Positions 60,401 through 63,400 of a stretch of DNA of 64,000 nucleotides are shown here, piece after piece. The position numbers were made by a program. Numbering within the stretch: position 1 is the stretch's first letter; every line of letters begins with the position of its first letter. Location: the NCBI RefSeq assembly GCF_057098645.1, contig NZ_CM169472.1. The stretch is one strand, 5' to 3'.

Positions 60401-63400
60401 ATGACGCCCGATCTCCAGCGCTCCGGCATCAATGCGCCACAGCATCACGTACATCAGCACGTCATCCTGTTGAGCGCCTCCGGCAGCCAGGACGCCCTCC
60501 GCCCAGGCGGCATATTTCGGCAGCAGCTCCACCTTTATTTCCGCTTTTTTGACCGTGGACTGAACGCCCTTGAGACGGCGGCGGTCTTCCGCCAGTTGCA
60601 GCAGCATCAGGTCATAGCCAGATGCGTGGCGAACGCTGCCGCCCTCGCGGGCGGCCTGTTCAGCCTGAACGCGCAGGCGATGCTGCCGTGCGGGACTCAG
60701 GCTCATAGGTTACGCTCCGGCTTCTGCTGCAGCGGCGCTGAAATCGCCAATCTGGATGTTTTCCACCAGTGCGGCGCAGCGGTAGTCCTCAACCACATAG
60801 GCTTCGTTAACGGATTCAAAGTTTTCAATCCGGTCACGTTTCGGGTTGTCGATAACTGAACGGCGGCGGGTGTCTTCCTGCCAGTAGATGGACAGGTTAT
60901 CCAGACGGGTGATTAGCAGCGCATTCGGCGGGAAGAACGGCGCACGCACGGCCTGCAGGCCACCCATGCGTTTCTGACTGATGATCATATCGGCAGCCAG
61001 TTTTTCACTGTTTTCCTGCTCTTTGTTGACCAGCGGGAAATACTTGTCAGACAGCAGTTCACGCCCGCAAATAACCACCAGATCGTCATCGTCCTGGTAA
61101 ACCACGTCGATAAGCTCATTGACGGCATCCATCACTACGGCGTCCAGGTTGGCATATTCGCCACCTTTCCCGACTTTCACCGCACCCGGTGTAGTTTCAC
61201 CGCCCGTGGTGGTGCTGCCCATGACGTGATCCGGTGCATCCTCACGGATTTTCTGCAGCCAGCCTTTATTCACATCCTGCAGCAGCGGGTTTTCGCTACG
61301 GTTGGAGGTTTTCGCACGCTTCACGCCGTTAAAGCCGATCATGATGCGGTCCAGTGCCTGACGTTTCACGATGGCGTCACGGATACGCACCTGGAAATCC
61401 TGAAACTTCGCCCACAGGTCCAGCTTCGCGTAGGTCAGCACCGTGTCAAAGTTGGTCTGCTCGCATTTATATTCCACATCGACCATCAGCGTCGGATCGA
61501 CAGGTTCACGCTCTTTCGCGGTGGTATCAGTGGTTCCGGCAATGGTGCTGCCAACACCCAGCCCCAGCAACTGACCGGACTGCTCAGTCACTGGCGTGAC
61601 GTTAATCAGTGTCAGGAAAGCGGCGGACTGCTGGATCTGGTCTTCCAGCGTCTGCTGCACGGACGGTTCGACGGTGAACTTGCTGGACAGTTCTTCAACT
61701 GCAACACCGTTCAGACGCGCCAGCTGCTGCAGGTAAGCGTTAAAAGCAAAGCGGGTATTCTTCTTCATCGGGTTTTGTGCTCCATCAGCAATTGGTCAGA
61801 GTGTCAGCGGGGGCGTTACCGCCTGTTGCACGCTGGCGGTAGTCCTGGCGGCTGTCTTCATGACTCAGCTTGTCCACCAGTTCGTTAAAGGCGGTCTGCT
61901 GTGCCTGCAGGGCAGTCTCCAGCTCAGACAGGCGTTCTTCCTGCTCAGACAGGGATTTTTCGGTGCGTGCGCTCAGGTTCTGCTGCTCTGTGGCGACCAG
62001 CTCCACGGCCTTATGCACATCAGAGAACCGGGCGTCATCGGACTGCTCTTTTTTGGTAAACAGCGCCGTGACGCGGGCAAACAGGGACGGTTTGTCGTCC
62101 TGGATTTCTTCCAGTTCGATCACCGTTTCCTCTGCAGCGGTAAAGAGATTGGCAGGATTCTGCTTGCGGTTTGCCAGCGGGTTATGGGCTGCACTGGCGC
62201 TGAATGTCAGCATTTCCGTACCCAGACTGGCGGGATCATCAGTGGCAGCCAGGCCGACCAGGTAGGCTTTGCCCGTATCAGCGAACTTCGGGCTGACTTC
62301 CATAGAGGTGAATAATTTCTGGCCTTTTTTCACCAGTTCCACCAGGGACTCCGTTGGCTCAACGTCGGCATACAGCGCCATCTTGCCTGCCAGCGGACCT
62401 TCCGTGATTTCTTCAGCAAACAGCGCCGTCACCTTGCCGTAGCGGTTAAAGGTGCTGTCCGGCAGATAAGACTTGATGTGCTCAAGGTTAATCAGCGCGG
62501 TATACACCGCCGGGTTGTAGCTGGCTGCCATCTGTTCCAGCCATTCACGCTGGATTTCGCGTCCGTCGGTGGTGGCACCTTCCACCCCGATGCGAAAACG
62601 CTTTGCTTTCACTGTCATGAGCCGTGCTCCGTTAGAAAAAACTTACTGGAGCCTTATGGTTGCGGTGATGGGGGCAGTGAAACAATGCGCGGTATTTGTA
62701 CCGACAACCACACAAACCGCAGGCGGGGAAAGCCTTCATTCAAGGCTGTAGGTTTGTGCCATGAACACCACACTGACACCCGCAGATCTCGATCCCCGTC
62801 GGCAGGCCATGCTGCTGTACTTTCAGGGATACCGCGTAGCCCGCATTGCTGAAATGCTGGGCGAGAAAGTTGCAACCGTTCACAGCTGGAAAAAACGCGA
62901 CAAGTGGGGTGACTATGGGCCGCTGGATCAGATGCAGCTCACCACCGCCGCACGCTACTGCCAGCTCATTATGAAGGAGCACAAAGAAGGGAAAGATTTC
63001 AAAGAGATTGACCTGCTGGCGCGCCAGTCTGAGCGCCACGCGCGGATCGGCAAGTTTAACAATGGCGGCAACGAAGCCGACTTAAACCCTAACGTCGCCA
63101 ACCGCAACAAAGGCCCACGCCGTCAGCCGGAAAAGAATGTTTTCACCGATGAACAGATTGAGAAGCTGGAAGAAATCTTCCATTCCTCCATGTTCAACTA
63201 CCAGCGCCACTGGTGGGAAGCCGGAAAAACCAACCGCATCCGCAACCTGCTGAAGTCACGCCAGATCGGCGCGACCTTCTATTTTGCCCGTGAAGCCCTG
63301 ATTGACGCCCTGCTGACCGGACGTAACCAGATTTTCCTTTCTGCCAGTAAGGCACAGGCCCACGTCTTCAAACAGTACATCATCGACTTTGCCAAAGAAG

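What the first reader, a model, noticed from the sequence alone, without database searches (positions are those of the whole stretch)
62619..62760. Single late-promoter dyad in the divergent O/P control region
Only one TGT-N12-ACA dyad (62697..62714) is visible between the divergently transcribed O and P operons; P2 is described as having separate PO and PP late promoters. Either one dyad serves both, or the second is degenerate.
Basis: inference. Interest (0 to 1): 0.2.

Follow-up and report, generated by a model that had tools for sequence, protein, structure and literature searches.

The report
One shared activator site, two promoters
The single TGT-N12-ACA dyad between the capsid-scaffold (O) and terminase (P) genes of this P2-like prophage is the ordinary, already documented arrangement in which one late-activator binding site sits midway between two back-to-back promoters and serves both.

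Summary
The dyad TGTACCGACAACCACACA is at 62697..62714, in the 142-bp gap between O (61785..62618, -) and P (ATG 62761, +) of a Fels-2-like prophage. A matrix built only from P2, 186 and P4 late-promoter sites ranks this dyad and the dyads upstream of V and FI as the three best hits in the 64-kb window. No second dyad in the O/P gap scores above chance.

This is not an anomaly. The P2 record annotates one "activator binding site; pO, pP promoters", and its two mapped starts each lie 55.5 bp from the dyad centre. The 186 record annotates one B-protein site "for pV and p12".

Here -10-like hexamers lie exactly 46 bp on each side of the dyad centre: CAACCA towards O and TAGGTT towards P. That is the spacing seen in P2 and 186. 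The second alternative, a degenerate second dyad, is not.

One minor point is inferred and not shown. The P start codon sits exactly at the predicted transcription start, as for gene V, so P mRNA is probably leaderless in this lineage, whereas P2 and 186 have a 23-nt leader. Verdict: known architecture, low interest.

The parts
62697..62714 (.). Shared late-activator (Ogr/B/Pag-type) binding dyad TGT-N12-ACA. Its centre is at 62705.5, 55.5 bp from the P ATG and 87.5 bp from the O ATG.
   Evidence: Exact match. It is the third-best matrix hit in the 64-kb window with the P2/186/P4 matrix, and scores 16.3 bits with the 12-site matrix that leaves the O/P sites out. TGT and ACA are invariant in 80 related contigs; the only changes are in the central spacer, 62703..62707. 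The same single dyad is found in Fels-2, SEN8, Klebsiella ST512-KPC3phi13.6 and Yersinia YenM_31.17.
62749..62754 (+). Predicted -10 hexamer of PP (TAGGTT), centred 46 bp from the dyad centre.
   Evidence: Dyad-anchored alignment. P2 and 186 have TAGCCT at the same 46-bp offset, 7 nt upstream of their annotated P and p12 starts. No variation in 80 contigs. Inferred, not mapped.
62761..62763 (+). P start codon. Its A (62761) coincides with the predicted PP transcription start, which implies a leaderless mRNA.
   Evidence: The ATG lies 7 nt after TAGGTT and 55.5 bp from the dyad centre, the same geometry as V here and as the annotated P2 V start on its ATG. The N-terminus of P aligns residue for residue with P2 and 186 gpP, so no downstream start is plausible. 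Inferred.
62657..62662 (-). Predicted -10 hexamer of PO (CAACCA on the - strand), centred 46 bp from the dyad centre.
   Evidence: The V and FI promoters of the window have CAACCT and CAACAT at the same offset, and P2 and 186 have GAAACT. No variation in 80 contigs. Inferred.
62681..62686 (-). -35-like hexamer of PO (TTGTTT on the - strand), 17 bp upstream of CAACCA. It accounts for the weak matrix hit at 62667..62684.
   Evidence: TTGT is kept in Fels-2, SEN8, the Klebsiella phage and the Yersinia phage at the same offset. The matrix score of 2.75-3.5 is at chance level.
62648..62650 (-). Predicted PO transcription start, giving a leader of about 30-32 nt.
   Evidence: It lies 55.5-57.5 bp from the dyad centre, as for the annotated starts of P2 PO/PF and 186 pV/pJ. 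Inferred.
62627..62630 (-). Shine-Dalgarno GGAG of O, 8 nt before its ATG.
   Evidence: Read directly from the sequence. It shows that O needs a leader. That rules out a PO activator site at -55 centred near 62675.
61785..62618 (-). Gene O (capsid scaffold), first gene of the O late operon.
   Evidence: Pfam Phage_GPO 3.7e-113.
62761..64000 (+). Gene P (terminase large subunit), which runs off the end of the window.
   Evidence: Pfam Terminase_5 2.3e-27 and Terminase_6N 2.2e-65.
56801..56818 (.). Activator dyad of the V promoter (TGTATCAGTGCTGATACA), 55.5 bp from the V ATG (56754).
50636..50653 (.). Activator dyad of the FI promoter (TGTGTCGTTATTCACACA), 85.5 bp from the FI ATG (50559).
43413..43631 (-). 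ogr/B/pag homologue (72 aa, CX2C-X22-CX4C), the presumed activator that binds the three dyads.
   Evidence: ORF list. Pfam Ogr_Delta 5e-22.

Best explanation
The dyad at 62697..62714 is the single binding site for the prophage's Ogr-family zinc-finger late activator (gene at 43413..43631). It lies midway between two back-to-back, activator-dependent promoters. PO reads leftwards into O-N-M-L and onward. PP reads rightwards into P-Q. The site is centred about 55.5 bp upstream of both starts, so an activator bound to the near-symmetric dyad can recruit RNA polymerase on either side. By analogy with P2 Ogr, this would be through the alpha subunit. Each promoter has its own weak -10-like hexamer exactly 46 bp from the dyad centre: CAACCA for PO and TAGGTT for PP. 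PO gives an mRNA with a leader of about 30 nt and a GGAG ribosome-binding site. PP is predicted to start on the A of the P start codon, giving a leaderless mRNA.

Shown here: the motif, its uniqueness in the gap, its symmetric flanks, its conservation, and the presence of the activator gene. Inferred: activator binding, both start sites and the dependence on the activator.
For: 1. A matrix built only from P2, 186 and P4 sites puts the FI, V and O/P dyads as the top three hits of the whole window. Three sites therefore serve four late operons. In the complete Fels-2 genome the top three hits are the same three sites.
2. Every other hit in the O/P gap scores at or below 4.8 bits, where 0.3-0.8 hits are expected per 142 bp. 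A matrix enlarged with the V and FI sites of this lineage widens the gap: 16.3 bits against 6.6 for the next hit.
3. P2 RefSeq annotates one 'activator binding site; pO, pP promoters' at 3057..3087. The P start is at 3016 and the O start at 3127, each 55.5 bp from the dyad centre.
4. 186 RefSeq annotates one B-protein site, 'activation of pV and p12 promoters'. The Smp131 paper places PP' and PO' on the same 18 bp (PMC3931495).
5. In dyad-anchored alignments every promoter of the window, Fels-2, P2 and 186 has a -10-like hexamer at +43.5..+48.5 from the centre. The annotated starts lie at +55.5 to +58.5.
6. One central dyad with hexamers about 46 bp away on each side (to within 1 bp) is seen in 11 phages from 8 genera of Peduoviridae.
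7. No sigma-70 consensus promoter is found in 62560..62820, as expected for activator-dependent promoters.
8. An Ogr_Delta gene is present.
9. Among 80 near-identical contigs, 23 of the 142 intergenic positions vary. None falls in TGT, ACA, either hexamer, the -35-like element or the O ribosome-binding site.
Against: There are no transcript or binding data for this element. Both start sites are predicted from spacing alone.

The genome-wide score of the O/P dyad (11.5 bits) is not exceptional on its own, since about 3.4 such hits are expected per random 64 kb. Its significance rests on position.

The PO hexamer CAACCA lacks the final T of the -10 consensus.

AGGT within TAGGTT could instead be a weak ribosome-binding site for P, 7 nt before the ATG. 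That would require a start further upstream and a different activator geometry.

I could not read the primary papers on P2 and 186 late promoters. The 'known' status rests on the GenBank/RefSeq feature tables and one secondary paper.
Confidence: 0.85

Rival explanations
1. There are two separate activator sites. The exact dyad at 62697..62714 serves only PP, and a degenerate dyad near 62666..62684 (TGA-N13-ACA, or GAT-N12-ACA) serves PO.
For: A one-mismatch match with a 13-bp spacer lies at 62666..62684, centred 57 bp from the O ATG. A TGT at the equivalent place is kept in Fels-2, SEN8, the Klebsiella phage and the Yersinia phage.
Against: Its matrix score is 2.75-3.5 bits, where 0.4-0.8 hits are expected per 142 bp. 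A -55 site there would put the PO start at about 62620, downstream of O's GGAG ribosome-binding site (62627..62630). The conserved TTGT is better explained as a -35-like hexamer lying exactly 17 bp upstream of the PO -10 hexamer. P2 and 186 have nothing at that position, and their records annotate a single site.
Confidence: 0.05
2. The dyad activates only PO. P is transcribed from a start upstream of 62750, using AGGT as its ribosome-binding site. That start would be either a weak constitutive promoter or one activated from the same site at a different distance (about -35 to -40).
For: AGGT lies 7 nt before the P ATG. Leaderless mRNAs are uncommon in enterobacteria (general knowledge).
Against: No sigma-70-like promoter is detected. 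The segment TAGGTT-TGTGCC-A(TG) matches P2's TAGCCT-TGCCGT-G(+1) in sequence and in distance from the dyad. The same 55.5-56.5 bp dyad-to-ATG distance holds for P in five phages of three genera, for V here and in Fels-2, and for P2 V, whose start is annotated on its ATG.
Confidence: 0.08
3. The dyad is a chance match with no function.
For: TGT-N12-ACA occurs 18 times in the window against 16.2 expected.
Against: It is among the top three matrix hits, and all three lie in late-promoter gaps. Only 0.0076 hits of that score are expected in this gap. TGT and ACA stay invariant while the spacer diverges across genera.
Confidence: 0.02

Closest known systems
Bacteriophage P2 divergent late promoters PP and PO with their shared Ogr/Delta activator site (NC_001895 features 3016, 3057..3087 and 3127)
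   Same: There is one partial dyad between the divergent P and O genes, and -10-like hexamers 46 bp from its centre on both sides. The P-side hexamer is homologous (TAGCCT in P2, TAGGTT here). The promoter set is the same (P, O, V, F), with three activator sites in all. An Ogr-family activator gene follows D.
   Different: The P2 dyad is imperfect (TGT-N12-CCA), whereas here it is exact. The P2 gap is 173 bp and P has a 23-nt leader. Here the gap is 142 bp and the P ATG lies at the predicted start. PO here has a TTG -35-like element that P2 lacks. O is only about 44% identical in protein.
Coliphage 186 promoters p12 and pV with one B-protein site (NC_001317 protein_bind 3798..3817)
   Same: A single annotated activator site is described as 'activation of pV and p12 promoters'. 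The geometry is the same: starts at 55.5 and 56.5 bp from the centre. The left half of the site, TGTGTGG, matches the window's site read in the O direction.
   Different: 186 has TGT-N12-CCA and a 165-bp gap, and the P homologue has a leader.
Fels-2 (NC_010463) and other Felsduovirus prophages; Escherichia phage 500465-1
   Same: The region is 92-100% identical in DNA. The dyad position is the same (55.5 and 87.5 bp from the two ATGs) and the hexamers are equivalent.
   Different: Only spacer substitutions differ. Those records carry no annotation for the regulatory elements.
P4 Psid and PLL late promoters
   Same: They have an exact TGT-N12-ACA site upstream of the promoter that is recognised by the same activator family.
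   Different: I recall that the P4 promoters carry a second activator site close to the core promoter; only the second exact dyad, 38 bp downstream of the first at Psid, was seen here. No comparable significant second site exists here.

Membership tests
P2/186-type Ogr/B/Delta-dependent late promoters | A partial dyad matching TGT-N12-ACA upstream of the promoter | tested here: met
   Exact match at 62697..62714. It scores 11.5 bits with the P2/186/P4 matrix, third in the window, and 16.3 bits with the leave-out 12-site matrix.
P2/186-type Ogr/B/Delta-dependent late promoters | Dyad centred about 55 bp upstream of the transcription start | not testable with these tools
   No transcript data are available. 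Indirect support: -10-like hexamers lie at exactly 46 bp on both sides, as in the P2 and 186 promoters whose annotated starts lie 55.5-58.5 bp from the centre.
P2/186-type Ogr/B/Delta-dependent late promoters | Weak core promoter that does not match the sigma-70 consensus | tested here: met
   No promoter-like site in 62560..62820. The hexamers are CAACCA and TAGGTT, and PP has a poor -35 region.
P2/186-type Ogr/B/Delta-dependent late promoters | An activator gene of the Ogr/Delta zinc-finger family in the same element | tested here: met
   ORF 43413..43631 (-), Pfam Ogr_Delta 5e-22, with a CX2C-X22-CX4C motif.
P2/186-type Ogr/B/Delta-dependent late promoters | Position in front of the late morphogenetic operons (P-Q, O-N-M-L, V-W-J, FI-FII) | tested here: met
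   O and P were identified by Pfam. The V and FI dyads lie upstream of ORFs syntenic with Fels-2 V and FI.
P2/186-type Ogr/B/Delta-dependent late promoters | Transcription depends on the activator and on the RNA polymerase alpha C-terminal domain | not testable with these tools
   This needs reporter assays or in vitro transcription.
Shared-site divergent PP/PO architecture (P2, 186) | Only one activator site in the P/O gap | tested here: met
   The next-best hits score 4.8, 4.6 and 2.75 bits, which is chance level, and they lie in positions that cannot be -55 sites.
Shared-site divergent PP/PO architecture (P2, 186) | The two promoters lie symmetrically about the site, with starts about 111 bp apart | tested here: inconclusive
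   The hexamers are symmetric at 46 bp on each side, which predicts starts at about 62650 and 62761, 111 bp apart. The starts themselves are not mapped.

The most novel reading that the evidence does not exclude
In the Fels-2 lineage (Felsduovirus, and also Gegevirus and Graikaemvirus) the 23-nt leader seen in P2 and 186 is absent, and the terminase large-subunit gene P starts exactly at the predicted +1 of PP. The P-Q operon mRNA would then be leaderless, like the V operon mRNA. Two of the four late operons would begin with a leaderless gene, which might hold down the amount of terminase and baseplate proteins relative to capsid and tail-sheath proteins.
Probability: 0.6. Interest if true: 0.25.

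Novelty: already known. Interest (0 to 1): 0.1.

Why it matters
It matters little beyond correct annotation. The finding shows that the O/P control region of this Fels-2-like prophage follows the textbook P2/186 design: one activator site placed symmetrically between two divergent late promoters. Nothing is missing or degenerate. It also gives coordinates for the promoter elements of all four late operons in a widespread prophage family of E. coli, Klebsiella and Salmonella whose database records lack regulatory annotation. The one testable by-product is the prediction that the terminase mRNA is leaderless in this lineage.

Tried and rejected
1. The bare TGT-N12-ACA count is not enriched (18 against 16.2), so I dropped it as a statistic and used matrices instead.
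2. I listed degenerate dyads with spacers of 11-13 bp and up to 2 mismatches. There are many, at the frequencies expected. The only position-compatible one (62666..62684) was rejected as explained under the rival explanations.
3. I considered the second exact dyad on the P ATG (62755..62772) as a possible P4-like promoter-proximal site. I rejected it because it scores low, is not conserved in Fels-2 or SEN8, and is absent from the Klebsiella phage.
4. I tested an alternative downstream P start that would create a leader. I rejected it because the N-terminus aligns from residue 1 with P2 and 186 gpP.
5. The IMG/VR search with gpO returned only near-identical contigs. These were useful for a small variation test but not for deep comparison. 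Diverse phages were fetched one at a time instead.
6. Pseudomonas phage Dobby and Mannheimia phage 2256AP1 gave no convincing matrix hit. Their activators probably have a different specificity, and I did not pursue them.
7. Literature look-ups failed for Julien & Calendar 1995 (PMC177091), Christie et al. 2003 and the Christie & Calendar 2016 review, which are not held. A search for 'leaderless' with 'P2 gene V' found nothing.

Full report
**Context**

The right part of the window is a P2-like prophage with its late genes on the minus strand. O is at 61785..62618 (-), with Pfam Phage_GPO at 3.7e-113. P starts at ATG 62761 (+), with Terminase_5 and Terminase_6N, and runs off the end of the window. 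The region is 99-100% identical to Escherichia phage 500465-1 and to CP019275, about 98.6% identical to many Klebsiella prophages, and 92.5% identical to Fels-2. It is a Felsduovirus-type element, not P2 itself: gpO is only about 44% identical to that of P2. An Ogr/Delta-family activator gene lies at 43413..43631 (-), with Pfam Ogr_Delta at 5e-22.

**The observation**

The O/P gap is 62619..62760, 142 bp. It contains the exact dyad TGTACCGACAACCACACA at 62697..62714. The bare pattern is as frequent in the window as chance predicts, 18 matches against 16.2, so the motif alone proves nothing.

It is weak by matrix score. It reads TGG...ACA in Fels-2 and SEN8 and is absent from the Klebsiella relative. 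I treat it as a chance match.

I built a symmetrised 24-column matrix from eight sites taken only from P2 (PO/PP, PV, PF), 186 (pV/p12, pJ, p32) and P4 (Psid, PLL). The coordinates came from the feature tables of those records.

- **Whole window.** The three best hits, on both strands, are the dyad upstream of FI (50636..50653, 14.8 bits), the dyad upstream of V (56801..56818, 13.9 bits) and the O/P dyad (11.5 bits).
- **Fels-2.** In the complete Fels-2 genome the top three hits are the homologous three sites.
- **Null model.** A first-order Markov null gives 3.4 hits of at least 11.5 bits per random 64 kb, which is only 0.0076 per 142 bp.
- **Rest of the O/P gap.** The next hits score 4.8, 4.6 and 2.75 bits, where 0.3-0.8 hits are expected per 142 bp.
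- **Enlarged matrix.** A 12-site matrix adds the V and FI sites of the window and Fels-2 but leaves out the O/P sites. It scores the O/P dyad at 16.3 bits. The best other hit is 6.6 bits, on the P ATG. The best hit in a position where a second -55 site could lie is 3.5 bits.

No second degenerate dyad is detected.

**What the reference phages say**

The P2 RefSeq record annotates a single feature, "activator binding site; pO, pP promoters", at 3057..3087. The P-operon start is at 3016 (-) and the O-operon start at 3127 (+). Taking the dyad as 3063..3080, each start is 55.5 bp from its centre.

The 186 record annotates a single protein_bind feature, "B protein; activation of pV and p12 promoters", at 3798..3817, between the divergent p12 and pV promoters.

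A paper on the P2-like phage Smp131 places its PP' and PO' on the same 18 bp, read on the two strands (PMC3931495).

P2 therefore does have separate PP and PO promoters, but one shared activator site. The single dyad here is the canonical design and not a departure from it.

**Anatomy around the dyad**

I anchored all the promoters on the dyad centre. A -10-like hexamer then lies at +43.5..+48.5, that is, centred 46 bp away, in every case.

| Phage | O-type | P-type | V-type | FI-type |
|---|---|---|---|---|
| P2 (PO, PP, PV, PF) | GAAACT | TAGCCT | CAATCT | TGAAAA |
| 186 (pV, p12, p32, pJ) | GAAACT | TAGCCT | CATTCT | GACAAT |
| Window (PO, PP, PV, PF) | CAACCA (62662..62657, -) | TAGGTT (62749..62754, +) | CAACCT | CAACAT |

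For P2 PF the best match, GAAAAT, lies one base further on. The annotated P2 and 186 starts fall at +55.5 to +58.5 from the centre.

The window's dyad is thus flanked symmetrically by two core promoters. This predicts starts at about 62650 (-) and 62761 (+), 111 bp apart as in P2. The P-side segment TAGGTT-TGTGCC-A is visibly homologous to P2's TAGCCT-TGCCGT-G(+1).

The same picture, one central dyad with hexamers about 46 bp away on each side (to within 1 bp), holds in 11 phages from eight genera of Peduoviridae:

- The window prophage, Fels-2 and SEN8 (Felsduovirus)
- Klebsiella ST512-KPC3phi13.6 (Gegevirus)
- Yersinia YenM_31.17 (Graikaemvirus)
- Wphi and P2 (Peduovirus)
- 186 (Eganvirus)
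- Klebsiella Kp4848-1 (Reipivirus)
- Klebsiella Kp4873-2 (Reginaelenavirus)
- E. coli 520873 (Xuanwuvirus)

No sigma-70 consensus promoter is found in the gap, as expected for promoters that depend on an activator. Among 80 near-identical IMG/VR contigs, 23 of the 142 intergenic positions vary. None lies in TGT, ACA, either hexamer, the PO -35-like element or the O ribosome-binding site, and four lie in the dyad's central spacer. Between genera the spacer diverges freely while TGT and ACA stay fixed.

**The only candidate for a second site**

The candidate is 62666..62684, which reads TGA-N13-ACA, or GAT-N12-ACA with two mismatches. It is centred about 57 bp from the O ATG. I rejected it for three reasons:

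- Its score is at chance level.
- A -55 site there would start the O mRNA at about 62620, downstream of O's GGAG ribosome-binding site at 62627..62630.
- The conserved TTGT within it lies exactly 17 bp upstream of the PO -10 hexamer in the window, Fels-2, SEN8, the Klebsiella phage and the Yersinia phage. It reads as a -35-like TTGTTT.

**A minor point that is new to me**

In the window, Fels-2, SEN8, the Klebsiella Gegevirus and the Yersinia Graikaemvirus, the P start codon begins 55.5-56.5 bp from the dyad centre and 7 nt after the -10 hexamer. That is the predicted +1.

The same holds for V here and in Fels-2, and P2 annotates the V-operon start on the A of the V ATG. The N-terminus of P aligns from its first residues with P2 and 186 gpP, so the ATG at 62761 is the real start.

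O and FI, by contrast, have clear ribosome-binding sites (GGAG and AGGAGG) and predicted leaders of about 30 nt. The P mRNA is therefore probably leaderless in this lineage, whereas P2 and 186 have a 23-nt leader with a GAGG site. This is an inference from spacing. AGGT inside TAGGTT could instead be a weak ribosome-binding site if transcription starts further upstream.

**Mechanism**

The mechanism is inferred by analogy with P2 Ogr, 186 B and P4 Delta, and part of this rests on my own knowledge of that literature. The small zinc-finger activator, made once the prophage is induced and replicating, binds the near-symmetric dyad. From a position about 55 bp upstream of both starts it recruits RNA polymerase to either weak core promoter, probably through the alpha subunit. 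This switches on the head-assembly operon (O-N-M-L and onward) and the packaging operon (P-Q) together.

**Verdict**

The arrangement is already known from P2 and 186. Interest is low.

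Noticed in passing
window 62755..62772: A second exact TGT-N12-ACA (TGTGCCATGAACACCACA) straddles the P start codon, 58 bp from the main dyad. 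Its matrix score is low (4.8, or 6.6 with the 12-site matrix). It reads TGG...ACA in Fels-2 and SEN8 and is absent from the Klebsiella relative. It is probably a chance match.
   Followed up: yes
window 62761 (P ATG) and 56754 (V ATG): Both start codons lie exactly 55.5 bp from their dyad centres and 7 nt after a -10-like hexamer, with no strong ribosome-binding site. This predicts leaderless P and V mRNAs in Fels-2-like phages. P2 and 186 have a 23-nt leader on P.
   Followed up: partly
window about 43324 (42793..43341): Homology to E. coli chromosomes stops at about 43324, inside hchA (glyoxalase III). The hchA ORF is cut to 182 aa, and the first prophage gene (the ogr homologue) follows. 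The prophage appears to be inserted into hchA.
   Followed up: partly
window 56801..56818: The V-promoter dyad is an extended palindrome with perfect 8-bp arms, TGTATCAG-TG-CTGATACA. It is much more symmetric than the O/P or FI sites.
   Followed up: no
window 62690..62703 (- strand): A small 5-bp hairpin, CGGTA-CAAA-TACCG, followed by a T-rich run was flagged as terminator-like. It overlaps the TGT half of the O/P dyad and is probably incidental.
   Followed up: no
window 62681..62686 (- strand): PO carries a TTG-type -35-like hexamer (TTGTTT) 17 bp upstream of its -10. It is conserved in the Fels-2-like, Gegevirus and Graikaemvirus phages and absent from P2 and 186. PO in this lineage might therefore have some activity without the activator.
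   Followed up: partly
window 50702..52236: A 188-aa ORF (50702..51268, -) lies directly upstream of the FI promoter, next to oppositely oriented ORFs at 51296..52236 (+). This matches the DNA invertase and alternative tail-fibre-assembly genes of Fels-2 by synteny, so it is a likely invertible host-range segment.
   Followed up: no
L088 (Pseudomonas phage Dobby) and L089 (Mannheimia phage 2256AP1), P/O gaps: Neither gap gives a convincing match to the enterobacterial activator-site matrix. The late activators of these P2-like phages probably recognise a different sequence. The Mannheimia record annotates its own promoter consensus.
   Followed up: no
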